From Mytilus trossulus (Eukaryota): 64,000 nt of DNA. Positions 38,335 to 62,190 of the stretch are shown here, piece after piece. Location of the stretch: the NCBI RefSeq assembly GCF_036588685.1, contig NC_086386.1, positions 57,908,001-57,972,000 on the forward strand, written 5' to 3'. The notes beneath the pieces were generated by a model, which was given only the letters and a program-made list of their open reading frames with translations, did no database searches and was not told where the DNA came from. Position numbers and translations under genes: made by a program. Positions within the stretch are counted from its first letter, which is position 1. Each line of letters opens with the position of its first letter.

Positions 38335-41300
38335 GGGCAAACACTTTATAATGGCCTTAAAATTAGAAAGATCATATCATAGGGACTAATTAGGTTCAAT
38401 TTGATTAGACTTTAACTTCATCAACCTTAAAAAAGAAGCCCAGTAATAATACATTCTAAACAAATTCAATGTTAACCAATTTATTTTGATTCTACTGGCA
38501 TGATTTTGTAATGCATGTACAATAAACTTATAAAATTGAGATATGTTCCTCCATAAATAAAACATTTAATAAATCTAGTAGTACCATACCTTTTGTGTTA
38601 CATAGTTTTGTCAAAAATAAATTTCAATTGTTAATAACAATCAATTTTGTCTAATTAGTTTTCATTTTAAAACTGATGTTTTCTAAAACCTGTTGAAAAA
38701 AAATTGTCATACAAAAAATGAAAATGGGAGACAACTCTAGGTTCTTGTTTTCCATTTTATCAGAAAATAACTAATTCAAATCTCTGATCATCCCATGATC
38801 ATACTGATATTCTCTGATAATCAAGATTTAATTTTAGATTTAGCAAGGGAAATTACTAGACATGCTAGATAGCATTGTGGAAAAAGTAACTGAAGCAAAT
38901 TTTGTTAATGTTGTACAATGATTTTTCCTGACTTTTTCTGTGTTAAAACATCATTTAACTATAAAAAATTCACAGAGGGCTGTTCCTGAATGGAAAGCAA
39001 ATTATCAAAAAAATAGTACCTCCGATCCCCTCCAATTCCTTCAACTTTGCACAAAAATAACAGTATCATTCTAGGTTACTAAAAATTAAATTCAGCCTTC
39101 AAGTTTTCCTTTGTTGGAGCAGCTATCATGTTCTTAACAGAAAATATATAAACATGATCAATCTGAATCTATTTATAAACTTTTCATTCTGATTCCAAAG
39201 TCTTCATTATCTGCATTGATAGGAATTTTCTCTTCAACAGTGCCACTTTATAGTCCATCCAGTTTCATCCTGATATAAATATTCTCCTTTTGGCAAATTT
39301 CCAGTAACATCATTTCGGTAATTTTCTAGAAAACTACCAACTCGGGGAAAAAAATTTTGCTTTACAATTTTTCATTGAATCAGTAATTCCTGTACAAAAG
39401 ATATCATAGTTCAAGGTCAGCCAAAGAATTACTATAGTATCATAACATATTGTTGATTTATATCTGAACAAATCTAATTCTGTTGTTCCAAGAAGCACAT
39501 CTTCTTCGCTATCATAAAAATATATGACGATCTTCTTTTTTGAGATCCCGATAGTACAAAAATGTACATGTAGTAGGAACCAAACAATGTCTAAGATTAT
39601 TTCTGTTTTCCTTGCGCTGGAGAAATGAGAAAAACAATTGATTGAGCTAGAACTTGTTCCTGATGACTAGATGTCTTTGTTTCTGGAGAGGACTCTGATG
39701 AAGATACTGTAGATGAGCCGACTTTAAAGTTATCATCTTCAACATTGGCCAAATGCACAGAAACATTGTTTATCAATATATCAGATTTTCCATGCCACCC
39801 ATCTATCCAACCTATAAAATAAAATTCAAATCAATAGACCACTTTTTGCATGTTTTAGGTATATGCTGCACCAGGAAAGTTCATTAATAATGCACCCTTT
39901 ATGAGGTTAGAAGGGTTCGTCTTGTATCTCTGCACTATTAAAATCTTCAATTGTCTTTGTGATCAAGATCATCATTATCATGATTATTCTGCATAATCAT
40001 GATAATGATGATCTTGATAATCTTGATAAACTAGAAATCGTGTTTTATCTAGTAGGTTTATAACAATTCCCTAATAACTGTAGTGCTGATTATCAATTCA
40101 GATAAATTAGTTTGCTGAATAATTAAAATGGAAATGTTAGAATGCAAATTTTATTAGATTTGGGCCAGAAGTGACCCAGTAGTATAAGACGAGAAGATTT
40201 TTGTATAAGTTAAGATGACATGGTACACACAGAAATGAGAAAGCTCAAAAGGGAAGGTCATGAAAGTACTGGTATATTTTTTGCTGTGTAAATTTGGAGA
40301 CATGTTTTATAAAGATTCACTGTCAAAAGGGCAACAAAACTTAAGGAAGGCTTTTCAAGGCATTAAAGATACGACAGGTACATGAAGGACAAATAAATCC
40401 ATATATTAATACACAAGTTTTGTTGTTGTTGACCTGTTATAATAAATCTTACCAAATGATGTAGCATCAAAATCACCATCTGCACTGTCACCATGTTCAC
40501 CAGTTTTGCATGGACAACTTAATGAATTTGGTTGGAATCTTAGATTATGATATGAATCATCAATTTTGTAACTTCCATCTACAGTCAGAGGTGATAACAA
40601 ATGCAGTGACACAATAACTGCCCACTCTGCGTCATCACAAGTTTCCTCCTCTAATGCAATATCATGATCTGCAAAAGAATTACACACAAATGTGACAATA
40701 TATACATTTGTACCCCATATCATCATGATTATCATGTTCATCAATATGACATGTATAAGAAATTGTGGTTTAATCATGAATATCTATTTATAATGGATTG
40801 GGAAACAAGTTATTGCAACGTATAAAATACATGTTATTGTCCCTTTCCACTTCCCCTTTAAGAAATAAAGGGTGTCTTTTACATTTTTAGGCAGTTAAGC
40901 TGCCTTATGCGAGCACCCTAGATTTGTGTTCTACTCAATAAATGCTGAAATACGTGCCATTGTCATTATTTAGCTGGATATTATATTTGTTATTTATAAC
41001 TAATAGTTGACAGTTATTTCATACTTTTTATTCTGGATAACAAAAAATATGACCAGAAAAACCTTAAATGGTTGTCGAATAACCCCAAACTTTTGAAGTT
41101 GTACATAAGAAGTAGAGCACATAACATGCATAAGGAATCCTTATATATATATAAATGTAGTTTATTATCCCCTGAGCTTTTGGCTAAGATGCCAAAGAAC
41201 AAATGTATGAAATATTTAACCGCAGAAAATCTCTAAAGATAGTTTAGACTTCCCAAATTGCAAAAAGTCGTAGGAATATTTTTTTGTCGTCAATACGCAA

Positions 41301-42219: not shown

Positions 42220-43114
42220 GGAAGCAGGACAAATCGCCCCACTGGCAAATCGCCCCACTTTTAAAAAATCACCCTAAACTGGTTTATCAACTCGCCCCAC
42301 TTGTATAAAGGGTTAAATCCCGTTAATTTTTCTCCTGCCAACTCGCCCCACTTAATGAAATAATATTATCCTAGATGAATATGAAAAATTCAGGTCTGCC
42401 AACTCGCCCCACATAACTAAAAAAAAAAATATACACAGAATACAAAAAAACGAAAATTTACTCAATCATTATTATTGATGTGGCATGACTCAACTTAATT
42501 CATCAGGTATTTTTTACTTTTCATAAGTGGGTCGAGTTAGCGCTAGCATTGCTCAATTTATCAGGATTTTTCTATTTTTCACTGGTTGGGCTAGTTGGCA
42601 TTCATGTCATAGAGAATACTGATACTCACTTCTTTATGCTTTATTTCAACAAAAAGAAAAGAACTACCATTATGTCATGTATGTATAGGTCAAAGAACTG
42701 TCTTCAACATGGAGCCTTTTTCACATCGAACAGTAAGCTACATGTATAAAGGGTCTCACGAATGACTAGTGTAAAACCATTCAAACGGGGAAAAAATGTG
42801 TATTGTTTTTTTAAAAGTGAGACAGGAACATACAGGACAAGTGGGGCAAGTTGGCATTACTAAATTCATCAGGATTTATCTATTTTTCAGAAGTGGGGCG
42901 AGATGGTAGACCATATAATATATCAGAGGGATTCTCTTTTTATAAATGAAGCAATATATCCAACCTATTTCCAATGGGATTTTATCCTTTTCATAAGTAA
43001 GGCGAGTTGGTAAACAAAAGTGGAGGGATTTTTTAGAAAGTGGGGCGAGTTGGTGAAAAAGTGGGGCGAGTAGGTGTGGGTAGATTTGCCAGTGGGGAGA
43101 TTTGTCATGGATTC
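42220..43114. mobile_element. Non-autonomous TIR element with repeated subterminal motif
   Basis: Left GGACAAATCGCCCCACTGGCAAAT..., right ...ATTTGCCAGTGGGGAGATTTGTCATGGATTC. Multiple CAACTCGCCCCAC on the left, inverted GTGGGGCGAGTTG on the right. No convincing TSD. Confidence 0.75.
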
Positions 43115-43348
43115 ATTTTTTCCAGGAAGGTGCTAAAGCAAAATTCTAATATAGCCTTCCAAGATGTACTAATTGAACATACAATGCAATGTATGCCTTA
43201 CCCTTGAGAAGATAATTTAGTAATTTTTCTAAAGCTTCCATTTGTTTCTCATCTTCTGGGACCTGTGGGTGCGGATCAAGGAACCTCTTCAAAATAAAAA
43301 CTCCATTTTGAAAAATTGACCCAGCTGCATAAATGCGGGCAAGAGGTT

Positions 43349-43653
43349 TGTAGTGTAATTGCCCCTTAGTTCTAGGGGTTTCCCCAACCTATCACAAGGG
43401 TACTGGTACATCACGGAGGGATCCGAAGGGACACATGACATGACGTAACAGTTGGGTACTTCCAGCCTCGTCCTCGATGACATCTCTCTTACCACGGAAC
43501 GAGCAAGGCAATGCGCCTGATATCTGGGGCTAGACGAGGTTAGCTGGGACTGACACCTTGTAGAAAGGTAAGGGCACTCTAACACTAAGCATAGCTTGTA
43601 TCAACCCCTCGGGTAACCATAGAGCTCAGCGAGACAGGCCAAATAACACTTTA
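43349..43653 (+). repeat. 5' LTR
   Basis: TGTAGTGTAATT...AATAACACTTTA; about 3 mismatches to the 3' LTR by eye. Confidence 0.96.
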
Positions 43654-43654
43654 C

Positions 43655-43673
43655 TGGTAGTTGCGGGTGGTTT
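43655..43673 (+). promoter_or_regulatory. Primer-binding site, imperfect match to the initiator tRNA-Met 3' end
   Basis: TGGTAGTTGCGGGTGGTTT, one base after the LTR; the metazoan tRNA-iMet complement is TGGTAGCAGAGGATGGTTT (15/19). Confidence 0.6.
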
Positions 43674-44133
43674 AAATTTTGGTCCTGTAGGGGATTGGAC
43701 GCCATTTTGGCATCACTCCAAAATTTTGAGTGCCTTCAGTCAAATCTAAAAATAAGTATTTTGTCTAAGGGAGACAAACTGGGTCCGGTGGTATACTTTC
43801 TAGGTGAAAGTCAGTCGTATTTGTATAGTTTTTGGGCTGAGCAAGGATTCGATAGTTACAAATCCTTGGGCTGAGGAAAAACTTTTTGAAAAGTTTGCTT
43901 TAGTGATAGCGAGATTTGGTCGCCATCTTGGATTATGTTTACAGATGTAAACAAACGGATGTAAACAAACACAAGAGCAGTTTGCTTTTATAGTGTTCCG
44001 TGTATATTTTATTTTTGACTTGAGTTTTTGTTGAATAAAAAAATATTGTTGATCCGTGTATAAATATAATTTTGTGAATTATATTGAATAAAGTGAAATA
44101 AATTTTTATAACTTTGTAAAGTACAAAGTCACT

Positions 44134-44831
44134 ATGCAGGGGTACATGATCAATATTAACACCTGTCCTAAGGTAATACTTACCTGCATACCTGGCATAG
44201 GGGAGGCCATAGCAGGAAGGATCATGGATATTAGGGCAAAAGGTATCCACATTGATAGAGATGTTTTGTTCCAAATTCCACACTTGAGAGTGACAGAAGG
44301 TATTCTGGGTATAATTGATTTTTCACGAAGACCAAGAGCTGAGCTCAGGGAAGCTGTCCGTGACGGAGCCTGTTCTGTGAGTATGTTGCCTCCAAAGCCT
44401 GATCATGTGATTGTTGATTGTGATTGTTGGAACCAGAGGAGTATCCTTGTTCAAGTTTTAAGGATACAGGTACTCAAGATGAGGTAGAATCATCTTGCTC
44501 AGAGGATGGAGCCTGCTCCAGTCTTGAATGGGACAAACATCGCCTGGAACAAATACAAAGTCGTTCTGAACATTTAACTATGTTAGACTAGTTACATTGT
44601 GAACCATCACAGGAGAGCCTTTCTTCAGAGAGTTTGAACTCAGACCTGAGTGTTTGTAGCAATGAGTATCATACTCAACCACCAAGGATCAACATGGTTG
44701 CGCACCCTCAACCAGACAGTCAACAGGACGGTGATGTCCCATATGACAGAATGTTCATACCGCTTAGCTAGAACTGGCATATTCAAAACCCTGTAGTCGA
44801 TCAACAGGAAGATTGCAACCATCAACAAGAG
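44134..44831 (+). pseudogene. Disrupted N-terminus of the Gag polyprotein with a helix-hairpin-helix (ComEA-like) domain
   Basis: ININTCPKVILTCIPGIGEAIAGRIMDIR is an HhH pattern. After a frameshift at the TGATTGT microduplication (about 44408-44430), the frame runs into ORF 44832 with only two TAG stops (44589, 44769). Confidence 0.75.
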
Positions 44832-47348
44832 GTGCAACAGACTCCGCCTAGATATAATAGCTCTGATTATGACCAACAACCAAGGTTCTTACATACACCT
44901 ACATCTGACCATGTTCACTTTTCACCAAGTGTACAACATGAGCACCACTATGTCGACCAATATCAACATGGCTTCAATAGTCTTCACCGACTGGAAGTCA
45001 ACAAGAGTCAACAAAGAGTGGAAATGCAACATAAAGTACAATGCCTACAACAACGGCTAGACCAGCTTCAACAAGGGGTCATTAACTATGCACAGCCTGT
45101 GCAACAACAACATCTAGCTGCAGCGCCGGCTTCTATACCTCTACAGCAGCTACAACAACAGGTTAGTGAAGTTGTTCATCAACAACCAAATTATCCAGAA
45201 CCAAGGTTTCAACCACCAAGTTCTGTACCAGAAGTTCAACAACATAAGATGATTGGTCACCCAACTTCTATGTATCAACCTCCTAGAGGTGAACCACCGC
45301 CACAAGCACCAACAAATTTAATGCCTTACAACCATCAATACATACCTGGTTTAACGTACCCAAGTTTGGGTCAGTCACAACCATTACACGTGCCTCAGTT
45401 ACCTATGCCTGGCACACAGCAGCAACCTCCACCATCAGGAGCACCTCAGCTGCATTACAACCAACCTTCAGCAAGACAGAAGGAATATAATAGTGATTAC
45501 TATGGGAGACAAGAAAGAAGTGATCCTAGACATAAATATATAGGTGATTCTGACATGTCAAATGTTTCAGCATACCGCCAGTCCAGAACAAAGCGAAGGT
45601 CAGAACCTGAGTACAACAGACCTCATAAGAATCAACAGCGTGATTTCTCACCTTTAAGAAGTGTAAGGAGTTTTCCATTACACCATAGTCGTTCAAATCC
45701 TAGAATGTCTAGAATGTCTAGTGACTCCCGATCAGAATCTGACACAGATGGTCAAAGTTCTGAAAGCAGTCAGGAAAGTAGACAAAAGGAGAAAATAGAG
45801 AAAAGACAATTTCTGTCCTCGATCCCGAAAACGCTCCGCTATAATGGGAAGGGCAACTGGAAAGCCTTTTATACCAAGTTTTCTAGTTATGCTAAAATGG
45901 CCGAGTGGACAGATAAACAAAAAAGGGAACAGCTCTGCTGGTGCCTAGATGATGCAGCCAGTGAGTATTACACCTTAATCCTAGAAAATAACAAAACAGC
46001 AAGTTTTTCTGATATTGTATCCAATATGAATAAGAGATTTGGTCATCAAGAATTGCCAGAAACCTCACAGGTTCAGTTCCAGACAAGTGCCCAAGGAGAA
46101 AAGGAGACCTTAGAGGAGTGGTCGGAAAGAGTGTTGACTCTCGCCACTAGAGCCTATAGCAGGTACAGTGAACAACTAATGACTGAACAGGCAATCATGA
46201 GGTTTTGTCAGGGTTGTAATGATACAGTTGCTGGAACAGAAGCTTGTATCTCTAAACCAAAGTCCATGGATGCAGCCTTGGATATGATTAGATGGTGTCA
46301 GCACACTAGGAAGGCTGTCAGTGCCATTCAGAAAACTAGCAAGGAGGAGTCTCTTTCAGAGAAGTCAGTTAACTCACCAGTAGTTCTTGGTGTAGGTAGC
46401 ACCAAGTCTAGTATGGATAATCGTCTCTCTCGCATAGAAGAACATATAAAGAAAATGATGTCAATAGTAACCAGTTTGGTTCAGGAACAATCAGCCAAAC
46501 ATGGAACCAGTCCTAGTTCTAGGTCACCTAATCAAGACAACATGTATTCTGATTATTCGCCTACTCGTAATTATGGTCGAGGGCGAGGGAATAACTCTGG
46601 CGACAGAAGATATACCAGACAGGGTTATTATAATAATGAATGCTTTAATTGTCACCAGCAAGGTCATTATATCAAAGACTGTCCAGAACTTTATGTACAA
46701 GAAACAGAAAGACAGACAGTACAGAAAGAGCCAACATCTCAACAAGTATCTTTTGATGAGAATAACATAGACAATTCTCATGAATCTGAAGGAGTAGTAT
46801 CTGGAATCAGTACAGTTAGATCACTAGGACCAGCCAAACTCTTTAGAGTTGAAGTATATATTGCGGGAAAGAAAGTACTCGCTCTAGTTGATTCAGGTTC
46901 TGAAGTAAGTATTCTTAAGGACACAATTTTTGACACTTCGGAGCCTAAGCCCTATGTTATCAGGGAGACTACCATGCATGGTGCTGGTACCAACATGACA
47001 ATGCCATGCAGGCTTTCTAGTCCTATAAAGTTTAAGATTGGAGAGATACAGTTCAATCAACAACTGTATGTAGCTCCAGTGTCATGTGATATGATACTGG
47101 GATGTGTCTTTTTCATGTATAATAGAGTTGTAATGAATGTAAGAGAACTAACATTAACTGTACAGAATAGGAACATGCCATTTATACTAGGAGATGAAAA
47201 CATGAACCTAATGTCAACGTTGTTCATGGAAAGAACACTTCAGATTCATCTTCAGATGAGAAACCCAGAACAGAAGGGTCAACACAAAGGTTCCCAGCCA
47301 GCAGGCAAAATGCTGAATTTCATCTTGAAACAGTCGTTCCTCAAGTAG
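44832..47348 (+). CDS. gag: Retrotransposon Gag (Q/P-rich, capsid-like, CCHC zinc knuckle) plus retropepsin-like aspartic protease
   Basis: YNGKGNWKAFYTKF...WTDKQKREQLCWCLDDAA (retrotransposon gag pattern), CFNCHQQGHYIKDC, VLALVDSGSEVSIL...DMILGC. Confidence 0.92.
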   Translation: MQQTPPRYNSSDYDQQPRFLHTPTSDHVHFSPSVQHEHHYVDQYQHGFNSLHRLEVNKSQQRVEMQHKVQCLQQRLDQLQQGVINYAQPVQQQHLAAAPASIPLQQLQQQVSEVVHQQPNYPEPRFQPPSSVPEVQQHKMIGHPTSMYQPPRGEPPPQAPTNLMPYNHQYIPGLTYPSLGQSQPLHVPQLPMPGTQQQPPPSGAPQLHYNQPSARQKEYNSDYYGRQERSDPRHKYIGDSDMSNVSAYRQSRTKRRSEPEYNRPHKNQQRDFSPLRSVRSFPLHHSRSNPRMSRMSSDSRSESDTDGQSSESSQESRQKEKIEKRQFLSSIPKTLRYNGKGNWKAFYTKFSSYAKMAEWTDKQKREQLCWCLDDAASEYYTLILENNKTASFSDIVSNMNKRFGHQELPETSQVQFQTSAQGEKETLEEWSERVLTLATRAYSRYSEQLMTEQAIMRFCQGCNDTVAGTEACISKPKSMDAALDMIRWCQHTRKAVSAIQKTSKEESLSEKSVNSPVVLGVGSTKSSMDNRLSRIEEHIKKMMSIVTSLVQEQSAKHGTSPSSRSPNQDNMYSDYSPTRNYGRGRGNNSGDRRYTRQGYYNNECFNCHQQGHYIKDCPELYVQETERQTVQKEPTSQQVSFDENNIDNSHESEGVVSGISTVRSLGPAKLFRVEVYIAGKKVLALVDSGSEVSILKDTIFDTSEPKPYVIRETTMHGAGTNMTMPCRLSSPIKFKIGEIQFNQQLYVAPVSCDMILGCVFFMYNRVVMNVRELTLTVQNRNMPFILGDENMNLMSTLFMERTLQIHLQMRNPEQKGQHKGSQPAGKMLNFILKQSFLK

Positions 47349-47362
47349 AGTCTAACCTAGCT

Positions 47363-48538
47363 ATGAGGGCCTCAACATCTACACAGGGATCTGAGCCTGA
47401 TCAATGTAGAGACAGTAGGGTTGACAAGGTAGAATCAAGAGAGAGCCTTGGGTTTTATACTTGTCCCAAAAGTGGAAAAAGGGAGAGGACTTGTGTTCAA
47501 AGTCCAACAGACCGTAAATGTCCTGTAAAGAACTGCCCAGTAGTGGTAGATAGAAGAGACGTAAAACGACATTGTTTTGAAGAACATCTTTCTGAAATTT
47601 TTCAGACATATCATTCCAAAAGACTGATGGAGGACAGAAGATTTCACCAACATAGAGCTTATGTGGTTATGCTCATAGCAAAATGGTTAACCGGGCAGGA
47701 AACAGGTACTGCCAAAGACTTGGTGAATTTCCTCAATGAGAAGTCTTTTGTGCCCCGTTCTACACATGTTTCAGGGATACAGATGCAAGTCCATCGTACA
47801 GTGTGTAAAGAGATGGGATGGACAGATTATTTTAGGTATAGTTTGAGACCGGTAAACAGCCCTGCTTGTTTACTCAATTGGAGAGTTCTTTCTTCAGTTC
47901 TACACTTTTTCAGCCCTGAACAACAAGATATGGTGGCCGAAGGATTTAGCTACAATCCTAGAAATCCTCCAGAACCTGAGGAACTTGCTGAGATGAATGC
48001 CAGTTTCTGGCCAGTGTTTGTTAACAAAGCTCAAGATGAGTCAGCAATTCCTCAAAAAGAAGGGGAGGAAGACAATGTTCAGTCTGAACAAGAAGGACGT
48101 ACCATAGTAATGGACGAAATAGAAGAAATTCACTATGAGAGTGAAAGTTTGAACACTGAAACATCTAGCAAAAAGAGAAAATTGCAGTCCAATATTGCTG
48201 ACAATGAAACAAATGCACACCATACTCTGAAGAATGAAACCGTACTTCTCCTAGGACGCCAAGTTTCACAACTAGCTGAATCCCAGGTAGAGCATTCTTC
48301 TTCACACCTCAAGTCGAGACAGAGTCCTCAAGTTCCAACAATTGTACTTATACAGTATGAGGGTTTGCAGTGTATGGCAAGGGTTAGTTCTATGGCAGAA
48401 CTGTACAATGTGGTTACTGAACGATTCCCTGAAAGTGGGAATGTTTCACTGATCTGTGAAGGAAGAGTTTTAGATGATAGTGTATGTTTTGACCTGTTAG
48501 GTCACCGTCCTCACATTGAAGTGAGGCGCCTTCAGTAA
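47363..48538 (+). CDS. Unknown retroelement protein in the pol position: C2H2-like motif, helical core, acidic linker, possible ubiquitin/PB1-like C-terminus
   Basis: 391 aa; CPVKNC..x8..VKRHCFEEH, PVNSPACLLNWR. No YxDD, RNase H or HHCC/DDE motifs. This frame is open from 47198. Confidence 0.8.
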   Translation: MRASTSTQGSEPDQCRDSRVDKVESRESLGFYTCPKSGKRERTCVQSPTDRKCPVKNCPVVVDRRDVKRHCFEEHLSEIFQTYHSKRLMEDRRFHQHRAYVVMLIAKWLTGQETGTAKDLVNFLNEKSFVPRSTHVSGIQMQVHRTVCKEMGWTDYFRYSLRPVNSPACLLNWRVLSSVLHFFSPEQQDMVAEGFSYNPRNPPEPEELAEMNASFWPVFVNKAQDESAIPQKEGEEDNVQSEQEGRTIVMDEIEEIHYESESLNTETSSKKRKLQSNIADNETNAHHTLKNETVLLLGRQVSQLAESQVEHSSSHLKSRQSPQVPTIVLIQYEGLQCMARVSSMAELYNVVTERFPESGNVSLICEGRVLDDSVCFDLLGHRPHIEVRRLQ

Positions 48539-49485
48539 CAGTTTTCCCAGTTTGGGATTTAACACCTTTGAAATTGTGTTGAGTGTGAGCCATTGTTGTA
48601 CTTTCTGTGATTTTTATTAGTTTTTTTTTGCTTGACCCTGTTTTTATTTAGATTTTGGTGATACTAACTATTAAAGTAGTAAAATAGTTAAATGCATCCT
48701 TATATAGAGGCACTATATATGTGGGATTTTTGACAAGAGTCAAATTATTTATGGTCATGTACATCCTTCCTAGTTTTGGGGTTATAGACCTATAGTATTT
48801 AGTCGGTTGTAAACTATGTACAAAGTTATACATGTACATGTTAGTTAGTTTCATTTGGAAATTCAGGGTGGTATTAATGAACTTGTCATTTAGACATTGA
48901 GATAGTTTTATATTTTGAAGCATGATTTTTGTCAGTTAAGGTCTGAACAGTTGATACATGTATATGTATGTGAACATTACACAGAGTCAGGGTTTTTAGA
49001 CGTGTTGAGCACGCAGTTTATTGTCTTGTAATGAGACCCATGTCCAGGACTGTATAAGTTGGAATAGCATATGGCTATGGTCGACCTGGAGTTCGGCTGT
49101 TATTTGTCCTGAAGAACCTGTTGAGGTTGGCACCTAGACTTGCTACATGTCCCTTCCTAATTATGTTTTTATTTCTTTTTTTCAATTTTGCCCCTTTAAT
49201 AGTTTTACTGCTATAACTAGGAGATTACAATTATACTGACATCTGCAGGAGGAAGGGACTTGTAAAGTTTGTCTGAGGCTTGACCAAACTGTTAATCTTA
49301 GAGTAATTAAGATTGACATTTATTGATAAGAATTTCAGATAACAGTTGGGAAGTGAAACTTGATATTCCAGTGTTGTGCAAATACTGTTATTTATTTTCA
49401 TTGTATAACTTACTAGAAAGATAAGGTCACTGAACTTATACATATGATCAAACATCACATCATTGTCAGAGTTTATGTTGTTCCA

Positions 49486-52400
49486 ATGGCAGAAAGTTCT
49501 ACTCCAAAAAAGTTTTTCAGATTTATAAAATTTACTCCGACAACTAAAAAAACTCTGTGTGTAATTTGTGGAAACAGAATTGAAAAAAGTGATTACAGGA
49601 GAAAATTATTTCATGGCAGCATCAAATCTGAATACTGTCTTCTTATTGAAAAACATCTGGAAATAAATATTACAGAAGAGACACATGCAGATACTGCATG
49701 TAGAAAATGTGTTAGAGAACTGCAAAAAATTGACAATGTTTTCACAACATTTAAATCGTCTTATCAGAATACTTTGGCAAAACTACGTGAAACACATGGA
49801 CATAACTCGGTTTCATTCAAAAGACAATTTTCCGAGGATGGTAGTGCAACTGTTAATAGTAGGAAATCATTGTTTCCTAGAGATGAGGAACAAGAAGATG
49901 ACTCCGAATTCAATATTGACACTGAAACTGACACAGAACTGAAGGTATGTTTGTAAAGTACATTATTGTAAAAAAAAATAAGAAAGGAATGACCTTTCAT
50001 AAGAAACATGTATCATCATCCTATAACCAACAGAAACGAGCAAAGAAATTGTACAATCTCATTTTGATTTTTTTATATATTTTTTTTCCTCCAGTGGCAA
50101 ATATTTCATGTGTTTCTAGATTAAAACTATGATTCAAGCATAGTTATTTTCAGTTTTGAATACAAAATTTTTAAAAAGCATAATTCTTGAGTAGCATATT
50201 CATATATAAAGACTATTAATTATATCTTTATGTATATGTATTTTTGTTTAATTTATTTTTTTATACACTTATTCATACATAAAATATTGAAATTGAACAT
50301 GAAACAGTAACTAATAAAAACATTAGTTTAATGAGGAAACAATCATTTTTGAGAGGGGAAATAGTGGGTATAATTATTCAAGTTTCTGAAGAACAAATAA
50401 TTTTTTTATGAAAACTTTTGCATGGGAACAATTACTTAATTTTAGCTTACAGTAAATTTTTTTTTGGGGAAAACAAAGTGTCAAATTTGTGTTTGTCCCA
50501 ATTCTTAGTGGAAACAAACTGGTTTTTATTTTACGACCCCTATCGATTAAAGATGATTTTCTCTCTGGAAAACTAGAATCTGGCAAATTTTACCCCCCCC
50601 CCCCTCCCCAGAAAAAAAAGAAACACACACACAAAATCAACAGTTTATACCAATGCTATTATTAAATTAAATAAAACATTACTTGTATGTCAAAGTTTTA
50701 GACATGATAATCTTTGCTCATTGTTGAAGGCGGTATGGTAACCTGAAATTATTAATTTCTGTGTCATTTTGGTCTCTTGATAAAAGTTGTCTCATCTGCA
50801 ATCATAACACATCTCTCTTTTTTTGTTTTTAACAAAGACATTCTTTAGGTTATAATATGCCGTGGATTAAAAAATGAAATACGGTGCATGCCTGCGAAGC
50901 ACTTTCCAATTCTTGATGCCTTAACCTCTGGTGATATGCCTACAGTTGGTTCGTTAATTTAAAAAAATCCAGATTTGCAAGATGTTTTCCAAGAGACAGT
51001 GTTTGATACCATCAAAGGAGAAATTAAAACTTTGGCACTAAGAGAGAATAACTCAATTTTACGTAACCATGACAAGATAAAGTCTCTTACATTTGCCAGA
51101 GTTATAGATGAATGGAGACAGAAAGCTCCTACTTTCTTAAAATCACTTGAAGCAGCGGTAGCAAACCCAGCACATCAGTTTAATAAGTATAAAAAGGGCG
51201 AAGCTTTAATACCAGGTATAGTGACTGCTGGCTGTAAACTTTTGACCCTGTACAGCAAAGATTTAAATGCTTTTCAACATTTTAATAGCTATATTTTGTG
51301 GAAAGGTGGTTGCAAAAAGTCTGCATTTTCTCGACTGAATGCCACATACGACTGCTTAAGCTACCAATCAACGCTAAGTTTGGCAGACAAGTTAGGGATT
51401 GACTGGGACAATGATCTTGTTGCCATGCAAGAACTAGTAACAACTGAAACGTCACATGAATTGGTGTTACTTCAGAACATACAGATGATCAAAGAGTCTA
51501 TTGATTTGGTGAACGGAGATGCTGATACAATGGTACAACGAATTCTTGAACTTTCTAATGCGGAAAATGATTTGCATCAGTACAGAGATTTAATGCACCC
51601 TGGCTTTTACTTTGTAGGAGATAATGTAGATATGCGTACAAAAGTCAGGAATATGACAATCTATAACCAACACAAAGACCATCATATGTACCAAATATGT
51701 GCCTATGAAAACAGGATTTCAGGGAACCACCTAGACAACACTGTTGCCAAAGGAGATGCAAATACAGTGCCCTTCACTACTTTCATACCGAGTCAGTTAG
51801 AATTGGACAGTATAGCTAGTGACTTCACTTTCTTAGTAGCGAAAATATGGAGTCAGCATATTCCACACTTCAACATATTTGCACCAGTCCTTCCCGAGTA
51901 TATTGAGCATCAGTACATGAAAGAAATGAAGCAAAAAACAGCAAGAGTAAGTTGATATTGTATGTGTTATTAATGTGATCCATTATTATTAAAAATAGTC
52001 AGTGGCAAATATTCCATGCATTTTACAAACAAGGACAAGGATGTAACATAAACATTTATATAACTTTGATCAATCTTTGACTTTGGTTCACAAAGGAAAA
52101 AGGCTACCCTATATGTATGTGTTTAAAAATGGCTACTTTCAAATCCTGCATCTTAATTAAGTCTTCGAAAATTACTGTTTGTTATGGTGTCCTTCATTTT
52201 CATGATTTTATCTTGATATTTAGCAAAAAACCTATTTATACAACATATTTCAATAAACCCACTATAAGTTTAAGTTTTGTTGACATATGTTAAAAATCAA
52301 GCAATAGCATATATAAAAATTAGTCGAAAAGATTATAACCCTAAAAAGTAATAATATGCTTAACTGGGCTCATTGTTGAAGGCCGTAGAGTAACCTATAG

Positions 52401-54670
52401 TTGTTAATTTCTAAGTCATTTGGTCTCTTGTGGAGTGTTGTTTCATTGACAATCATAACCGTATCTTTTTTTTTTATATTAAAAAGTATTAATACTTAAG
52501 TACAAAACATATAACTTTTTACTATACATGCATATAAGAATTATATTTGATTGTGTTTAATTTCATGTACCTCATTTTGCTTTTAATAGATAAATATGGG
52601 AGTTTTGATGAAAAGTGAGCAATACAATGAAGATATGACAGACATTTGTGAATTTATGCACAAGTATGTACCTGGACACAATGAAACAGATGACTGGACA
52701 AAACAGCCACAAAAAGTCTTGAGTGGAGGAGACTATTTAACTTTTGAGAGACACAAACAGGCACAGTCATCCAAACGAAATGGTCGAACTCCAACAAAAA
52801 GATTAGAGGGACTGGTACCTAAAATGGAAGAATTTCACAACCAGGGAGAGTTGCTAAAGGTAATGTCTACAATACTCTAAGATGCATGATTTTTTATTAG
52901 TTGCAAGTGGCTTTGAACTAGCTGTCAGATAACTGAGAGTACTCCCAGAAATGTTTCTAGTGTCTTTTTGTTGTCTAGATGTAGAAGTACCTGGCCACGT
53001 CCAATTGTATTTTTGTCCATCTGATGAGTTAAGCCTTTTTTAACTGATTTTTATAGTTCGTTCTTATCTTGTACTGTTATACCACTGTCCCAGGTTAGGA
53101 GGAGGGTTGGGATCCGCTTTAACCCTGCCATATTATTTATGCATGTGCCTGTCCCAAGTCAGGAGCCTGTAATTTAGTGGTTGTCGTTTGTTTATGTGTT
53201 ACATATGTGTTTTGTTTTACATTGTCATATCGGGGCCTTTTATAGCTGACTATGCGGTATGGGCTTTGCATGCTCATTGTTGAAGGCTGTACAGTGACCT
53301 ATAGTTGTTAATGTCTGTGTCATTTTGGTCTCTTGTGGACAGTTGTCTCATTGGTAATCATACCACATCTTTTTTTTTTATATCTACATAAGAAAGATAA
53401 TTTGAAACAGATTATGTCGTATGTTGATATTTATTTTTAAATATATTTTTTCAGAAAAAACACTTTTATTTTTTGAGAAATGCATATTTTTTCATTGTTA
53501 AACCCGTAATCTGTCTGATTGCTTCAATTTCAGGTCATTTGGAAGTTGTTGTACTCAACCTCGTCAGCTAGAGACCAGGGAACTCTGTATGCAGCACGCA
53601 ATACCATAAATGCAAGAAATGTTACCCAAGATCCAGCCGATGATTTTTATGCAGCTTCTGATCTTGTTGAGAAAGTTACCACAGCATATATTATAACAGG
53701 TGGTCTTACTCACTTTGGAATGGAAAGCATAGACTCTTTACCCTGTAAAAATGTGTATGAGGGTGCAGTTGGGAATACAAATGAAATGAAGGAATATATT
53801 TTTGATCAGGCACGCTCGTTTGTTAAGACATTCACATTGCCAGAGATACCTAAACTTCCAAAATATGGGCCAAATTGCAATACATATCATTGTAGATACT
53901 GTGGAAAAAAGTACAAACAACCACATTCCCTCAGAAAACATGAATCCTCCATTCATGATCATTATGATCCTCTTTTTGCTAAGGAAAAAGTTTCGAGTGG
54001 CAAGGATAACGAAAACGAATCTGATGGAGTTAGTGCGTACACAAAGTTGGTTTTAACATTGGGTTTATTAAGAATGGATCACAACGATGCAATTCATATG
54101 GGTGATGGAACAAGGATGTTAAGAATTGACCAGTTCCTGGTTTTGTACTATAAATATTGTCATTGTACAAAATACGCCTTTGGTACCTTGGAAACTATAG
54201 CCCAAACTGAAGTTTTGTTAACAGAACGCCAGGCACACAGACTGATATGGAACAGAACTGTAAACCATAAGGGGGACGCAAATACAAATCATCCAAATGA
54301 TTTAGATGTTGAACATTGTAATAAGGTGTTTAAAGATTCTGCCCATAGATACAGAGGTGTTTTTACTGAGAAAGTGGTTTCGAGAGTCAGTAAGAGTGCT
54401 ATGAAAGTCCACGAAATTATCAAACAGTTTGACAAAATGTGTAAAGTGCATGTTCAATCAGGACGACATAAAACATGTGACAAGGAAATAGACATTTTAA
54501 CTTTGGTCAGACAATTCCAGGCATGTAATTTATTCGATTTCATTCCTGGCCGATCACATTATGCCTATCCAAACATGAAGGAAAATCCCCTTACAGAGCT
54601 AGACATGGAGTTTGTTGGAGACTGGATTGGTGCTAGTTTAAAAAAGTTTCATAACAAACATTTCTATTAG
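49486..54670 (+). pseudogene. Academ-type (DUF6589-like) transposase, 4 exons, about 987 codons, one in-frame stop
   Basis: Exons 49486-49944, 50849-51946, 52590-52859, 53534-54670, all phase 0 GT-AG. N-terminal CxxC...CxxC; motifs GDNVD, GGDYLTFER, EEFH, C2H2 finger CRYCGKKY...LRKHESSIH, GDGTR, KYA, NRTVN..G....N.P.DLDVEHCN. TAA at 50960-50962. Confidence 0.85.
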
Positions 54671-54688
54671 CAGAACAATTTTATTGTT

Positions 54689-56786
54689 TCAAAACATTTC
54701 ATCATCTGAACTGTAAATGACTTGTGGTTTTCTTGTTGACGATTCTAAAACATCACTGTCACTATCACTTGAAAACATATCATCGAGTTCTGTGATGTCA
54801 TTGTCATCGTTATCATCACTATCATCATTGTCCTCATTTGACATAATAGCTGTGTTTATTTTAGGGAGAACTTGATTGCAAGTGTTTGTACATACACATT
54901 CATCTTCACAACTGCATGCACATTTGCACGAGAGACGACAAATATCACAACAAAAGTGAGGTATATGTGCATGTTCAACAATTGTTTTAAATATATTTAG
55001 AATAAATGCCCATCTGCAGGTTTTAGATTTAACATATTCTTTCATAGATGGGAATATATTTTGACTTCCTAAACATCTTTTGTAAGTTAGTAGAATAGCA
55101 TTGCATTGTTGCGAAAGCTCCCTACCATCACGACCAGATTCTTGTACATAGTCATCAATATCATTAGCTGGACCATAATGTATAACTGTATCCACACCTT
55201 TTACATCTAGACCCATGCTAAAAGATGTTGAACATAGAACAACTCTAATATTACCATTTGGATTCATGTAGGATGTACAAATAAAATCTTTTACGTCATC
55301 ATCGGTTTTCATGTGGAACATGTCAAAAAGGCGATTTCTGTTATCATTTGGTCCTCCCTCTATGAAGTCTATGTAAGCATCATGCTTAAGGGATGTTTCA
55401 AGATATTCGTATACGTCTGCAATGTGTTTGATTTGCCTAAAGAATATAATCATCCTTGAAGTGGCCTGCTTATATCCTCTTAATAAATTTACTAACCATC
55501 TAAAATTGGTGCAAATATCATCTGAAGGTAAATTATGTACCCAGTATGTCACATTCTTTTTGTCAGGATTTACCATAATCTCAGAGCAGTTATCCATACA
55601 AAGTTGCTTTTTAATGACAGCTTTGGTTTCCTCTGTAGCTGTTGCTGTTAGAGCCACTACTGGTACATGACCCCCAACAAGTGAACGAATTTCGTCAAGT
55701 CGGCCATAACAGGGTCTATATGCCAATTTCTTCTTCTTTTTATCTGGAAGCCCACTGAAAAAAAATAAAATTAATTAATCATATTGCAATATAAATCTGC
55801 ATAGGTCTCATAAAAATGCTTTAGCTTTACAAAGAAGTATTTCATAAGAAAAATTATGTAAGCACCATAGAAAACATATTTATATAATCTTAATTATTGT
55901 AGATATCCAACTGTCCAGTAGCAAATATTTCATACATCTTTCAAAACATCACAATATGAATTGAAAGTTTTTAATTTGACACCATTGGCAGAATAATCTT
56001 TCATAATAGTAACAGAAATATTCAATTAAAAGGGTGATTAATATTAAAAGTAAAATTAAATGAGAATGTTTTGAATAAATAAACATTAAATAGTTAGTGC
56101 ATGTACAGATATATATTATATATACATTTATAAATATATGATGTTCTTTTGTATGCATGTACTATTTTCAAGATATACATATTTATTCTTATGTATGTCA
56201 TGTATGTTATATCTTATGTTAGAGCGATTCAGATTATTATTATTAGTATTATACTTTTTTTGTTTGTTATATGTACAAAAATAAATACTTACAACTTTTT
56301 TATGCAGTGAGCTTCATCTACAAATACTGTCTTGATAAAATTTTTCTTTGCCAAATCCAACAGTAATTTTCTTTCGTGTCCAATAAGTGACTCTGGACTG
56401 GAGAAAATAATGTCAATTTTTCCTTCCTTCACATCTCCTAAGGAAAGATTTGTTAGGCTGTCTTCAAAATTAGATGGTGAGGTAATGTCCTTCAAATATA
56501 CTGCTTTAATCCCTTTTCTATTCAATGCTTGAGTCTGTGTTCGCATTAAAGATGTTAGAGGCGAAATAACAAGTACAATGCACATATCATTCTTCTGTAA
56601 ATATTTAAATACAAAAGGTGCTATTTCAAAAGTTAGTGATTTGCCACTTCCAGTTGGTGAACAAAAAAATACATCTTTGCCTGCCAAAAAGCTTTCTACA
56701 ACTTTTCTCTGGTTAATTTTGATTTCAGTAAATGATAACTTTTGTAATCCAAAATCTATTGCAGCAGATATGACATCTGTATCCAT
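54689..56786 (-). CDS. RecQ-like SF2 helicase of AcademH, 2 exons, 519 aa
   Basis: Exons 56786-56293 and 55754-54689 join as VDEAHCIKKF|GLP. Motifs PTGSGKS, VISPLTSLM, DEAH, ALTATA, STSFSMGLD, QESGRDGR; Cys-rich CCDIC...CxCxC; acidic tail. Confidence 0.92.
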
Positions 56787-57353
56787 TTTGATGTTGAAAT
56801 CATAAGAAAAGTAAAATTGTAATCTACTTGAGATAAAATATGGGAGAACAGCATGGGATATATACACATGACAGCTTAATTATCTATTATCAACAGATGT
56901 GAAATTATAACCTCTTACCGACCAGTATCTGGTCGGTAAAAAATGTTATTATACAAGTCCCTTTCTCCAAGGGCAATCAGTAGGCTAGCACTTATCAGTA
57001 AACATATAAATTAGTGAGAGAAAAATAATAGAAAGGGAATTGAAGCAAGTCTAGTTGGCACCCTGTGGCAACTCTGGTGTGTAAATTGTTGGGAATTTGG
57101 TACTCTATAGATAAGATAGCTGTTCAGAGCTCGATTTTCATATGTTTATTTTTACATGGGTAATTAAATTTTTTTTTTCCTTGGGAAATATTAAGTTTTG
57201 TCAATTTTCCCCTTATCCAGGATTAAGGGGGGTGGATACTTAGGATACCCTGTGTCATGGTTTAATTAGTAAAAGACGTTGCCAGTTTTCTCCTTGGGAT
57301 TTTTTTGTAAGATTATACAGTCGTTTTTGTCGGAACTGTAGTTCCTCCTTTTT

Positions 57354-57367
57354 AAGATGGAGGGGGG
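57354..57367 (+). promoter_or_regulatory. Polypurine tract
   Basis: AAGATGGAGGGGGG directly abutting the TG of the 3' LTR. Confidence 0.85.
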
Positions 57368-57672
57368 TGTAGTGTAATTGCCCCTTAGTTCTAGGGGTTT
57401 CCCCAACCTATCACAAGGGTACTGGTACATCACAAAGGGATCCGAAGGGACACATGACATGACGTAACAGTTGGGTACTTCCAGCCTCGTCCTCGATGAC
57501 ATCTCTCTTACCACGGAACGAGCAAGGCAATGCGCCTGATATCTGGGGCTAGACGAGGTTAGCTGGGACTGACACCTTGTAGGAAGGTAAGGGCACTCTA
57601 ACACTAAGCATAGCTTGTATCAACCCCTCGGGTAACCATAGAGCTCAGCGAGACAGGCCAAATAACACTTTA
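57368..57672 (+). repeat. 3' LTR
   Basis: Direct repeat of 43349-43653. Confidence 0.96.
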
Positions 57673-58899
57673 GGTTTTTCATAATTCCTGTATTTTTCAA
57701 ACAATTGCACCTCACAAGATGCACGGGAGAATTCCTCACTCAGAAGGGCATTTGTCTGCAGTATTTTTAATGTACGAAATACCATATCTGACGATCCACG
57801 ACATAACGATATGTATGCTTCTTCCAATAAATCTTTTTCAATTTTCTTTTTTAAAAAATCTTTAAAGAATGACCCATAGTCATATGTCTTTTGTCGTTTT
57901 GCACTGGTGTGTGCTCCTTCTGCCGACATTTTTAAATGTTTGAGCGAGCTGTCACTAAAAGTATTCAGCTAACTCAGTAACTGCTATAAAGACACTTGAA
58001 GTTCATTAGTTGAGGGATCACTTAAATAATCTTCGAGGTTCAGGCTCTCGTTTTGGCAGGGGAATGTAAGTAAGGGGGAGGGAAACCAATGATGTCTGGT
58101 TTCTGGATACATCAACGTACTTCCGGTCACTCGAACCAGTGGTCTCGGCCCAAAGATTACGCTCGTACCTTTTGGTGTATACATGCGTAAAGCAAATATA
58201 TATCCAGATGAAATATCATTCGGTGGCAAAAGGTTACAGAATGTTTTGCCAGATTTTTTTTCCGCAGGAAAAAATGTTATTGGGAAATATTTTCCATTGC
58301 CATGAAAATTAAAAAAAATCCGGGAAGTTAAAATATAAATTGTTAAAAAAAAAAAATCTTTGCTATAAATACCAAGGATTTGTATAGTAAGATCTTAAAA
58401 AAACTTGCTAATATTATACTAAGGACTAATATTAGTGTATTTGTATATCAATATTTTAGAGTATAATATATATATATATTATAGTCGGAAAAAATATTCA
58501 CAGATTATGATTAAAAATAATATTCTGAATCATGACTTTTTAAAGAAATATCATAGTTTAAAAGACAATTATAATGAAACAGATGAAACAACACCAGAAG
58601 TAATTTCGCATATATTAATTGTGAAATAATATCTTAATCAATAAAAAATAAGGAAAGTGAAATACAGCTAAGAAAAAGAGTTGTTTTCCGAGGGCCTGCT
58701 AAGAAATTTCAGAACTCAGTACTAATAAATTAGTAATTTTTTAAAAAAAACAAAGGTTTTTAAAAGAGTTATATGATGTACATATACAATTGTTCAGTGA
58801 AATTTAAGTTGAGGATTAAAAAGATTGAGACATCTTTACTTTGAATTCCAGCTTTTAAACGTTGTGAATCATCTTAATGACGAGGTCAAGTATATCAGA

Positions 58900-60460: not shown

Positions 60461-60754
60461 GATAGGTCCGCTGCTGTATGCCCTGAGGTAGTCGGTGCTC
60501 TCAGGTAATTGATGCCCTCAGGTAATCGTGGTAATGTGTCATTGATTAAATTCGCACGAAATAATAGTTCTTATTTAGATAGATCTTAATACCAAATTTT
60601 AATGTGACTAAATACCAAAGATGTCAACAAACTCGCAAGGTGATTTTATTATTTGTATTCACCGATCATTCATTTCGTATGTACGTGTATGGTGGGGATG
60701 GCTGGTGAAATTATAAACATTTTTTTTTTTTATAAAAGTTCAATTAATGATCTG

Positions 60755-62190
60755 AAGTATTCATTCATGACAGGGTTACCCGAGGTAACCCCAATAATAA
60801 CAACAAATACAAACATTTAACTCAAGTCAACTGAGGTAACTTTATATATACATCACATAAACAATACAAATCTATGAAGTCCTACATTTTAAATTAAGAA
60901 ATTGTGTAATTAAAATATAAATGTATACACTACCAAAGTATCTACTTAGAATTATCTCATAACAGGGTAACCTGAGATAACCTAAACAATAACAGCAAAT
61001 ACAACCTATTTTACTCAAGTTAATTCAGATCACCTTTACAAATACATCACATACACAATATAATTTCAATGAATTCCTACATTAAAAAAGAAGAAGTCGG
61101 TTTATTACAGCATAAATGCATATACTAGCAAAATATCTACTAAGTATTCTGTCACGACAGGGTTACCTCTGGTAACCCATAAAATAGCAACAAGTATTAT
61201 CCATTCATTTCAAGTTAACTTATGTCACTTATCCGATATATCACATAAACATATGAAGTCCTACATGTAAAATAAAGATTTTTTTTGATTACAACATAAA
61301 TGTTTACACTAGCAAACCATCTAATAAGCATTCTCCATAACATGGGTACCTGAGGTAACCCCAGACATAATTACAAATATAACCCACTTAGCTCAAGTAA
61401 ACTGAGGTCACCTTTACATGTACATCACGTAAACAATACAACTTTCATGAAGTCCTACATTTAAAATAAAGAAGTTTGTTTATTACAATAAATGTAAACA
61501 CTAGCAAGGTATCTACGAAGTATTCATTCATGACAGGGTTACCTGAGGTAACCCCAGTAATATCAATAAATTTAACCCATTTAACTCAAGTTAACTCAGG
61601 TAACATTTATATATATATACCTCGCATAAACAATACAAATCTATGAAGTCCTACATTTTAAATTAAGAAATTGTGTAATTACAGCATAAATGCATATACC
61701 AGCAAAGTATCTACGAAGTACTCTTTCATAACACGATTACCTCAAGTAACCCTAAAAATAACAACAAGTATTATCCATTCAAATTAAGTTAACTTAAGTC
61801 GCCTTTCCCAAATATCATATAAACAATACACATCTATAAAGTCCAACATTAAAAGGTAAATGGTTTATTACAACTTAAATGTATACACTAGCAAGATATC
61901 TACGACGTATTCTTACATGACAGGGTTACCTTAGGTAACCATAACAATAACAATAAAGATAACCCTTTTAACTCAAGTTAACTAAGGTCACCTTTAAACA
62001 TATATACATCACTTAAACAATACAAATCTATGAAGTCTTACATTTTAAATTAAGAAATTGTGTTATTAAAATATAAATGTATACACTAGCAAAGTATCTA
62101 CTAAGAATTCTTTCATAACAGGGTTACATGAGGTAACCCAAACAATAACAGCAAATACAACCTATTTAACTCAAGTTAATTCAGATCACC
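60755..62190. repeat. Satellite-like array, about 190-bp unit, 7-8 diverged copies with an internal palindrome
   Basis: Anchor CATGACAGGGTTACCTGAGGTAACCC recurs at about 60766, 60958, 61154, 61336, 61529, 61727, 61916 and 62114. Confidence 0.9.

What the first reader, a model, noticed from the sequence alone, without database searches (positions are those of the whole stretch)
43202..57929. Three-level nest: AcademH inside an LTR element inside a host exon that rejoins in frame
Seen: deleting 43349-57672 and one GGTT joins ...TAT GAA AAA CC|T CTT GCC CGC..., giving YRNYEKPLARIYAAG...LLK. This splices in phase 1 to exon 40668 and on to exon 39811. Both TSDs (4 bp and 9 bp) are intact, so the structure is fully resolvable and explains several orphan ORFs (57645-57929, 40406-40777).
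Basis: seen in the sequence. Interest (0 to 1): 0.7.

Follow-up and report, generated by a model that had tools for sequence, protein, structure and literature searches.

The report
Nested transposons in dead mussel gene
A helicase-type DNA transposon sits inside a retrotransposon that lacks its copying enzymes, and that sits in the first exon of a mussel gene that is also broken elsewhere and was likely already decaying; the nesting is ordinary, but the middle element belongs to an old family that likely borrows its enzymes from relatives.

Summary
The nest is real. A 7.9-kb AcademH (49135-57053, 9-bp duplication) lies in the 3' non-coding part of a Gypsy-type LTR element (43349-57672, 4-bp duplication), which lies in exon 1 of a Mytilus gene. 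All 12 of 12 informative sister LTR copies hold the Academ site empty. Mytilus orthologs run straight through the EKP|LAR junction, and a spliced contig from another animal confirms both introns. Its last exon has four frameshifts, and the allele carries 19-20 derived amino-acid changes against about 4 expected since the LTR landed, so it was probably decaying first. The host protein is predicted to have a PD-(D/E)XK nuclease fold and belongs to an unnamed mollusc family. The middle element is not a decayed single copy: it belongs to a uniform 6.5-kb family lacking RT, RNase H and integrase in 16 of 16 copies. The family shares its ends, PBS, PPT and a 94%-identical Gag core with RT-bearing relatives. 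The scan noted another AcademH in an already broken gene elsewhere in this genome (unchecked note). Ordinary nesting; modest interest.

The parts
57673..57929 (-). Host exon 1, 5' part (ATG to ...YRNYEKP), including one copy of the 4-bp duplication GGTT (57673-57676)
   Evidence: 91-93% identical to residues 1-85 of Mytilus proteins P0001 etc.
43202..43348 (-). Host exon 1, 3' part (LARIYAAG...LLK), with the other GGTT copy (43345-43348); GT donor, phase 1
   Evidence: X10 contig 11 covers 43202-43349 joined to exon 2
40453..40668 (-). Host exon 2; in-frame loss of 1-2 codons near 40642
39173..39811 (-). Host exon 3 (nuclease-fold core), broken by four frameshifting insertions: 1 bp near 39632, 19 bp near 39556-39574, 1 bp near 39345, 1 bp near 39248
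   Evidence: contigs of runs X10 and X11 are shorter by the matching 1-2 letters (table 8)
43349..43653 (+). 5' LTR (305 bp, TG...TA), followed by a PBS-like tract
44092..48538 (+). Coding region of the pol-less Gypsy-type element, here in three open stretches: HhH (44092-44487), Gag + CCHC + aspartic protease (44772-47348), accessory ORF2-like domain (47198-48538); no RT, RNase H or integrase
49126..49134 (+). 9-bp target duplication of the AcademH, left copy
   Evidence: a single copy in 12 of 12 informative sister LTR elements
49135..57053 (.). AcademH DNA transposon, 7,919 bp, short TAG-starting inverted ends
49486..54670 (+). AcademH transposase gene, four exons (49486-49944, 50849-51946, 52590-52859, 53534-54670), 987 codons with one premature stop at 50960-50962
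   Evidence: (DUF6589 E 7e-24; zf-AD)
54689..56786 (-). AcademH superfamily-2 helicase gene, two exons, about 520 codons open, convergent with the transposase
   Evidence: (DEAD, Helicase_C)
57054..57062 (+). 9-bp target duplication, right copy
57368..57672 (+). 3' LTR, preceded by a polypurine tract

Best explanation
An AcademH DNA transposon lies inside a pol-less Gypsy-type LTR element, which lies in exon 1 of a Mytilus gene predicted to encode a PD-(D/E)XK-fold nuclease, and this allele was likely already a decaying pseudogene when the LTR element landed. Order of events: (0, inferred) the allele lost function and gathered frameshifts and amino-acid changes. (1; insertion shown, mechanism inferred) a copy of the 6.5-kb family integrated with a 4-bp duplication. 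The family encodes its own HhH-Gag-CCHC-protease-ORF2 protein and would be reverse-transcribed and integrated by the Pol of RT-bearing relatives that share its LTR ends, PBS and PPT. (2, shown) an AcademH cut-and-pasted as DNA into that copy's 3' non-coding region with a 9-bp duplication. The exon rejoins in frame simply because removing an integrase insertion plus one duplication restores the target; that has no biological meaning of its own. A dead gene is a neutral landing site, which lets insertions pile up there.
For: Empty Academ site in 12 of 12 informative sister copies; those with both LTRs measure 6,447-6,538 bp, against 6,396 bp here once the Academ's length is subtracted. Six full-length M. 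edulis/galloprovincialis proteins and one M. californianus protein cross the junction; 384 of 411 residues are identical to P0001. X10 contig 11 joins 39609-39809 | 40451-40668 | 43202-43349 and has 432 more letters off the laid stretch. Four frameshifts. Derived residues, with M. californianus as outgroup: 19-20 in this allele against 3, 5, 8, 5, 6 and 12 in six orthologs, p 0.0004-0.034 in 5 of 6. Age of the LTR copy: 3 of 305 LTR mismatches and 24 private changes in 5,105 columns, 0.47%. That predicts about 4.4 amino-acid changes and 1.7 indels if the gene had died at insertion; P(5 or more indels) = 0.03. The transposase keeps three introns on the LTR's transcribed strand, as expected for a DNA-level insertion after integration. 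RT, RNase H and integrase are absent in 16 of 16 family copies and present in 7 of 8 other Gag-matching places checked; shared ends, PBS and PPT.
Against: One ortholog (P0010) has 12 derived residues, p 0.21, and the six comparisons are not independent. Two of the four frameshifts lie in homopolymer runs and could be assembly errors; counting only four indels gives P = 0.09. The window's species within Mytilus was not fixed, so some changes may be species divergence. No raw reads of this individual were seen. Helper use is inferred from shared signals, not shown. The nuclease call rests on a predicted fold: no Foldseek hit at E <= 0.001, and the best structural match is a mitoribosomal protein, Z 9.7, not an enzyme.
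Confidence: 0.78

Rival explanations
1. Same nest, but the LTR insertion itself knocked out a working gene, and the exon-3 frameshifts arose afterwards or are partly assembly errors.
For: An insertion at codon 86 is enough to kill the gene. The upper bound of the LTR-pair age (1.4% per lineage) could hold 2-3 indels. Two frameshifts lie in homopolymers. P0010 shows that orthologs can carry 12 derived residues.
Against: The tighter age from 5,105 columns (0.30-0.70%) predicts about 4 amino-acid changes, not an excess of about 14. The 19-bp insertion and the insertion near 39248 are not homopolymer slips.
Confidence: 0.17
2. The 'host' gene is itself selfish cargo: a nuclease family moved about by large mobile segments, so the nest would have four mobile levels.
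For: Predicted restriction-endonuclease fold with conserved D218, E251-x-K253 and Q260. Three of three paralog pairs checked sit in multi-kb blocks of 95-99.9% identity, two pairs on different contigs. Five diverged Mercenaria paralogs among 8 family members looked up.
Against: No termini, target duplication or transposase were found at the one block end examined. This locus has orthologs of 88-93% identity in three other Mytilus species, lies beside an ordinary LRR/EF-hand gene (read from the sequence), and shares only common repeats with those blocks. Segmental duplication and hemizygous dispensable genes are common in mussels (PMC7653742, abstract).
Confidence: 0.08
3. The structure is an assembly artefact: a collapse or chimera of repeats placed into the gene.
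For: No read-level support from this individual was obtained, and the repeats are multi-copy.
Against: Two independent target duplications of the family-typical lengths, complete termini, and unique host sequence continuing in frame on both sides. A misassembly would not create these.
Confidence: 0.02

Closest known systems
AcademH lineage of Academ DNA transposons (Kojima 2020, Mob DNA 11:15: not held; seen only as cited in PMC10045372, passages)
   Same: Transposase (DUF6589) plus superfamily-2 helicase; 9-bp duplication (that passage gives 9 or 10 bp for AcademH); many short non-autonomous derivatives. Academ is reported as amplified in bivalves (PMC10294476, passages).
   Different: Nothing of kind. 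This copy has a premature stop in the transposase; the only other transposase-bearing copy found is rearranged.
TR-GAG non-autonomous LTR retrotransposons of plants (Chaparro et al. 2015, PMC4350172: abstract and Discussion read)
   Same: LTRs, PBS, PPT and target duplication, a Gag frame but no RT or integrase, many uniform young copies; mobility presumably in trans.
   Different: Animal host; 6.5 kb rather than under 4 kb; 4-bp rather than 5-bp duplication; keeps the protease and an accessory ORF2 domain in the same frame; the likely helper is present in the same genome, whereas none was found for TR-GAG1.
Ty3/Gypsy LTR retrotransposons of molluscs (Thomas-Bulle et al. 2018, PMC6238403, passages)
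   Same: The RT-bearing relatives have the order Gag-PR-RT-RH-IN, and their RT/RNase H is closest to Ty3 among solved structures (E 1e-74).
   Different: Clade not assigned (no tree against reference elements). The relatives carry an N-terminal HhH, a C-terminal PHD and a second ORF; in two more distant families that ORF is followed by TatD.
Helenus TRIMs of bivalves (Kojima 2024, PMC10886601, passages)
   Same: Long-lived non-autonomous LTR elements in Mytilus with 4-bp duplications.
   Different: Helenus is short and non-coding with tRNA-derived LTRs; this family is 6.5 kb and coding.
PD-(D/E)XK restriction-endonuclease-like fold (DrdV, BpuSI nuclease domains; human mitoribosomal large-subunit chain 5)
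   Same: Predicted fold of the host protein: Z 9.7 (rmsd 3.6, 186 aligned), 7.8 (2.7, 129) and 7.4 (3.6, 146); most other top-50 rows are nucleases of this fold.
   Different: No Pfam family; the nearest Atlas clusters are unnamed mollusc proteins; activity untested.

Membership tests
AcademH | Academ-type transposase | tested here: met
   DUF6589 E 7e-24 and 1.5e-5; four-exon model. That DUF6589 marks Academ transposases is recalled.
AcademH | Helicase gene (not nuclease) as second gene | tested here: met
   DEAD E 6e-18, Helicase_C E 2e-13
AcademH | 9-10 bp target duplication | tested here: met
   9 bp here; 15 of 16 family places exact at 9 or 10 bp; criterion from PMC10045372
AcademH | Placement in the AcademH clade by transposase phylogeny | not tested
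   No reference set held; paper not available
Ty3/Gypsy (autonomous) | LTRs, PBS, PPT, short target duplication | tested here: met
   the LTRs end TG...TA, not TG...CA, in the family and in its RT-bearing relatives
Ty3/Gypsy (autonomous) | Own RT, RNase H and integrase after the protease | tested here: not met
   Absent in 16 of 16 copies, so it is filed as a non-autonomous derivative of a Gypsy lineage
Ty3/Gypsy (autonomous) | Gypsy domain order and RT affinity in the RT-bearing relatives | tested here: met
TR-GAG | LTR element with Gag but no RT/integrase, multi-copy and uniform | tested here: met
TR-GAG | Under 4 kb, a single ORF coding only for Gag, plant host | tested here: not met
   6.5 kb, protease and ORF2 kept, mussel. 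It works like a TR-GAG but is not filed as one.
TR-GAG | Transcribed and mobile | tested here: inconclusive
   3 of 10 sister copies have identical LTRs; transcription not shown
PD-(D/E)XK nuclease fold (host) | Restriction-endonuclease-like alpha/beta core | tested here: met
   Model pLDDT 85; VIA matches; Foldseek alone found nothing at E <= 0.001
PD-(D/E)XK nuclease fold (host) | Catalytic D ... (D/E)xK motif | tested here: inconclusive
   D218 in 79 of 83, E251 in 56 of 84, K253 in 50 of 84, Q260 in 72 of 88 aligned sequences; E251/K253 follow a low-confidence loop (240-249) and active-site geometry was not checked
PD-(D/E)XK nuclease fold (host) | Metal-dependent nucleic-acid cleavage | not testable with these tools
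   Needs an assay on an intact ortholog

The most novel reading that the evidence does not exclude
The middle layer is an animal counterpart of TR-GAG: a genus-wide, long-lived satellite of a mussel Gypsy lineage. It lost RT, RNase H and integrase as long ago as its autonomous sister families split from each other, yet keeps building its own capsid under purifying selection. Its protease, freed from processing Pol, drifted to 50% identity and fused with an accessory zinc-finger/helical ORF2 domain of unmatched fold. It would co-assemble with helper Gag-Pol and has more full-length copies than its helper in this genome.
Probability: 0.55. Interest if true: 0.45.

Novelty: new member of a known kind. 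Interest (0 to 1): 0.3.

Why it matters
As a nest it is a clean teaching example but changes nothing: transposons inside transposons inside dead genes are common (general knowledge). It gives a datable null allele of an unstudied, mollusc-expanded nuclease-fold family in a genus known for dispensable genes (PMC7653742, abstract). It also shows that insertion-in-exon findings need a check for earlier lesions before the insertion is blamed. The by-product has more value: a coding but pol-less LTR family whose likely helper is identifiable in the same genome. That gives a natural comparison of which parts of Gag, protease and ORF2 stay constrained when Pol is borrowed.

Tried and rejected
Chance duplication or misassembly: rejected. 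A 5-bp LTR duplication (AGGTT fits the window equally): rejected, because the LTR ends in A in all 10 sister copies with both ends, and 8 of these have exact 4-bp duplications. 'Gag is specially held to match the helper': not supported. Another RT-bearing family is equally close in the Gag core (86-99% at pS 0.58-0.74, against 94% at pS 0.67); only the protease differs (79% against 50%). A fourth insertion level inside the AcademH: about 180 bp at 50421-50601 are missing in the C10 copy but unique in the genome and without termini, so it is unpolarised; the common repeats in its introns are shared with the C10 copy. Host gene as transposon cargo: no termini found. Pfam finds nothing for the host; Foldseek nothing at E <= 0.001. 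The ORF2 domain model (pLDDT 88.5) has no match above Z 3.7 and none in BFVD; the Atlas gave only a 0.75 hit. This does not show a new fold. No RNA holder on record was listed. Whether runs X1 or X2 carry the insertions could not be read, and a read test spanning both LTR junctions in one stretch was not obtained. The Kojima 2020 AcademH paper is not held. Literature searches for a Gag-protease-only Gypsy family in bivalves, or for TatD/HhH-bearing Gypsy elements, listed no such paper, but Repbase and subscription journals were not searchable. No supplements were read; those of PMC10294476 and PMC6238403 may list these families. Look-ups in earlier scan notes by sequence and by nearby place were empty.
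Full report
OBSERVATION. The window is G000:C14:57908001-57972000; homologous proteins place it in the mussel genus Mytilus. Two 305-bp direct repeats at 43349-43653 and 57368-57672 differ at 3 positions and are flanked by GGTT on both sides. Inside them, 49135-57053 has inverted ends (17 of 20 matching) and is flanked by GTTGGCACC on both sides. The minus-strand stretches 57929-57673 and 43344-43202 read in one frame across the LTR site. They end at a GT donor in phase 1, and AG acceptors precede 40668 and 39811.

INNER LEVEL: AcademH. Pfam finds DUF6589 and zf-AD on the plus strand and DEAD plus Helicase_C on the minus strand. A four-exon transposase model has 987 codons with one premature stop at 50960-50962; the C10 copy has a sense codon there. 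The helicase is open over about 520 codons. Searches of the own genome with the two ends gave 222 and 243 candidates, of which 40 each were scored; most are short derivatives of 200-290 bp with ends up to 100% identical. Among 28 loci examined, 16 distinct places had both ends: 14 have exact 9-bp duplications, 1 a 10-bp one and 1 a 9-bp one with a mismatch. PMC10045372 (passage) gives 9 or 10 bp for AcademH. Only one other copy of transposase exon 2 was found (98.5% identical; its helicase end is inverted), plus a 3.9-kb internally deleted copy. The family is recently active; this copy's transposase is dead.

MIDDLE LEVEL: a pol-less Gypsy-type family. The LTR has 41 matches among 53 candidates (40 scored). 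Of 13 sister copies fetched, 12 covered both flanks of the Academ site and all 12 hold a single GTTGGCACC. The 10 with both LTRs are 6,447-6,538 bp long and have 0-6 LTR mismatches; 8 have exact 4-bp duplications. The window's copy less the Academ's length is 6,396 bp. The coding region here is in three open stretches. In some sisters HhH, Gag, CCHC, protease and the ORF2-like domain lie in one frame of about 1,500 codons. RT, RNase H and integrase probes hit 0 of 16 family copies (window, L024-L036, L099, L100) and 7 of 8 other Gag-matching places. The RT-bearing relatives encode HhH-Gag-PR-RT-RH-IN-PHD plus a second ORF, and their RT is closest to Ty3. They share the LTR termini, the PBS-like tract and the polypurine tract with the short family while the LTR interiors differ; their ORF2 is 32% identical to the short family's C-terminal domain. 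Against one such relative the Gag core is 94% identical at pS 0.67 and pN 0.031; the protease is 50% identical at pS 0.73 and pN 0.305. A second RT-bearing family is as close in Gag (86-99%, pS 0.58-0.74) but 79% identical in protease. So the short family is about as old as the split between autonomous sisters, has kept Gag under purifying selection, and has let its protease diverge faster while keeping the D-S-G motif in 13 of 13 family stretches scanned. Predicted proteins of M. galloprovincialis, M. edulis and M. coruscus show the same protease-to-ORF2 junction without RT (4 of the 11 hits were read); these are gene models, not genomic checks. In two of five more distant loci scanned, the ORF2 domain is followed by TatD. 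The domain folds confidently but matches nothing. Mobilisation by the RT-bearing relatives is inferred, not shown.

ORDER OF THE TWO INSERTIONS. No sister carries the Academ. The transposase keeps three GT-AG introns on the strand the LTR element transcribes, which passage through RNA would likely have removed. The Academ therefore entered this copy after it integrated (inference).

OUTER LEVEL: the host gene. The exon-1 fragment found 4 proteins among 52 candidates, all Mytilus. Six full-length M. edulis/galloprovincialis proteins (410-411 aa) and one of M. californianus read K-P-L-A-R-I-Y across the junction. In run X10 (RNA by guess) one 1,004-nt contig lies on 39609-39809, 40451-40668 and 43202-43349 in succession and has 432 letters left over, as an empty, spliced allele would. 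Two X11 contigs join exons 2 and 3. In G000 this is the only locus at ortholog-level identity among 22 matches (47 candidates); the nearest paralog is 71-73% identical and lies in pieces on two small contigs. The family is large (409 representatives at E <= 0.001), molluscan in the Atlas clusters, and has no Pfam name. The AlphaFold model of an intact ortholog (pLDDT 85, 88 sequences) matches the restriction-endonuclease-like fold. The best rows are a mitoribosomal chain (Z 9.7), DrdV (7.8) and BpuSI (7.4), with nucleases filling most of the top 50; Foldseek found nothing significant. D218, E251, K253 and Q260 are conserved in 79 of 83, 56 of 84, 50 of 84 and 72 of 88 sequences. A nuclease is the most likely function; it is untested.

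A frameshift-aware alignment gives 384 of 411 identities to P0001 but four frameshifting insertions in exon 3 (near 39632, 39556-39574, 39345, 39248) and an in-frame loss near 40642. The rejoined frame stops after 276 residues, before the invariant P285 and the near-invariant Y299, D300 and D304. Contigs of X10 and X11 are shorter by the matching 1-2 letters over three of these places. With M. californianus as outgroup the allele has 19-20 derived residues against 3, 5, 8, 5, 6 and 12 in six orthologs; this is significant in 5 of 6 non-independent tests. The LTR copy has 24 private substitutions in 5,105 columns (0.47%, CI 0.30-0.70%) and 7 private indels. Had the gene died at insertion, about 4.4 amino-acid changes and 1.7 indels would be expected; P(5 or more indels) = 0.03 and P(4 or more) = 0.09. 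I put 'dead before the LTR landed' at about 80%. Against it: P0010's 12 changes, possible homopolymer errors at two sites, and unknown species divergence.

COMPARISON AND VERDICT. The inner element is an AcademH on every feature tested. The middle element works like plant TR-GAG (PMC4350172, abstract and Discussion) but fails its size and Gag-only criteria, so it is filed as a non-autonomous Gypsy derivative. I saw no paper describing it in five searches, but Repbase was not searchable; that Gag-retaining non-autonomous LTR elements occur in animals (for example MaLR) is recalled. An unchecked scan note (e1-9876373) describes another AcademH in an already broken gene of this genome, which fits but is not independent support. 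Note e1-9158259 led me to PMC10886601 (passages). The in-frame rejoining is the expected arithmetic of an integrase insertion. Verdict: observation confirmed, interpretation supported with corrections, new member of known kinds, interest 0.3.

Noticed in passing
G000:C6:55077069-55083808 vs C1:37773580-37780472; C6:50773521-50791328 vs C11:36434000-36453899; two places on C13 (L115-L118): Paralogs of the host nuclease-fold family lie in multi-kb blocks of 95-99.9% identity, two pairs on different contigs, rich in tandem repeats. Either segmental duplication or a large mobile element; ends unresolved.
   Followed up: partly
L144:739-3258, L145:1833-3065: More distant Gypsy families carry TatD DNase downstream of the same ORF2 domain (Pfam E 4e-37 and 3e-36). 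No paper on this was listed in one search.
   Followed up: partly
L085:1029-8474: RT-bearing Gypsy relatives have an N-terminal helix-hairpin-helix and a C-terminal PHD finger on one polyprotein; their LTRs end TG...TA.
   Followed up: partly
window 39556-39574: The 19-bp insertion in host exon 3 looks like 16 bp with palindromic ends flanked by a 3-bp repeat, possibly a transposon footprint.
   Followed up: no
window 42228-43106: Element with inverted ends and many subterminal repeats in host intron 1.
   Followed up: no
window 50421-50601: About 180 bp present in this AcademH's first intron, absent from the C10 copy and found once in the genome.
   Followed up: yes
L105 (G000:C14:58049060-58049233): An 85%-identical copy of the host gene's 5' region up to the ATG lies about 83 kb away with no coding sequence after it: a possible relic of a deleted tandem copy.
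   Followed up: partly
G000:C140 and C168 (L095, L096): The nearest host paralog (98.6-100% identical to P0012) is split over two small contigs: exon 1 on one, exon 3 on the other; exon 2 was not found.
   Followed up: partly
window 21506-23422 (-): Intronless, intact HSP70.
   Followed up: no
window ~31470-37060 (+): Multi-exon gene with LRR-like and EF-hand-like exons, convergent with the host gene (read from the sequence; not scanned).
   Followed up: no
window 60754-62212; 13975-14539; 12157-12606: Tandem arrays of about 193-bp, 41-bp and 37-bp units.
   Followed up: no
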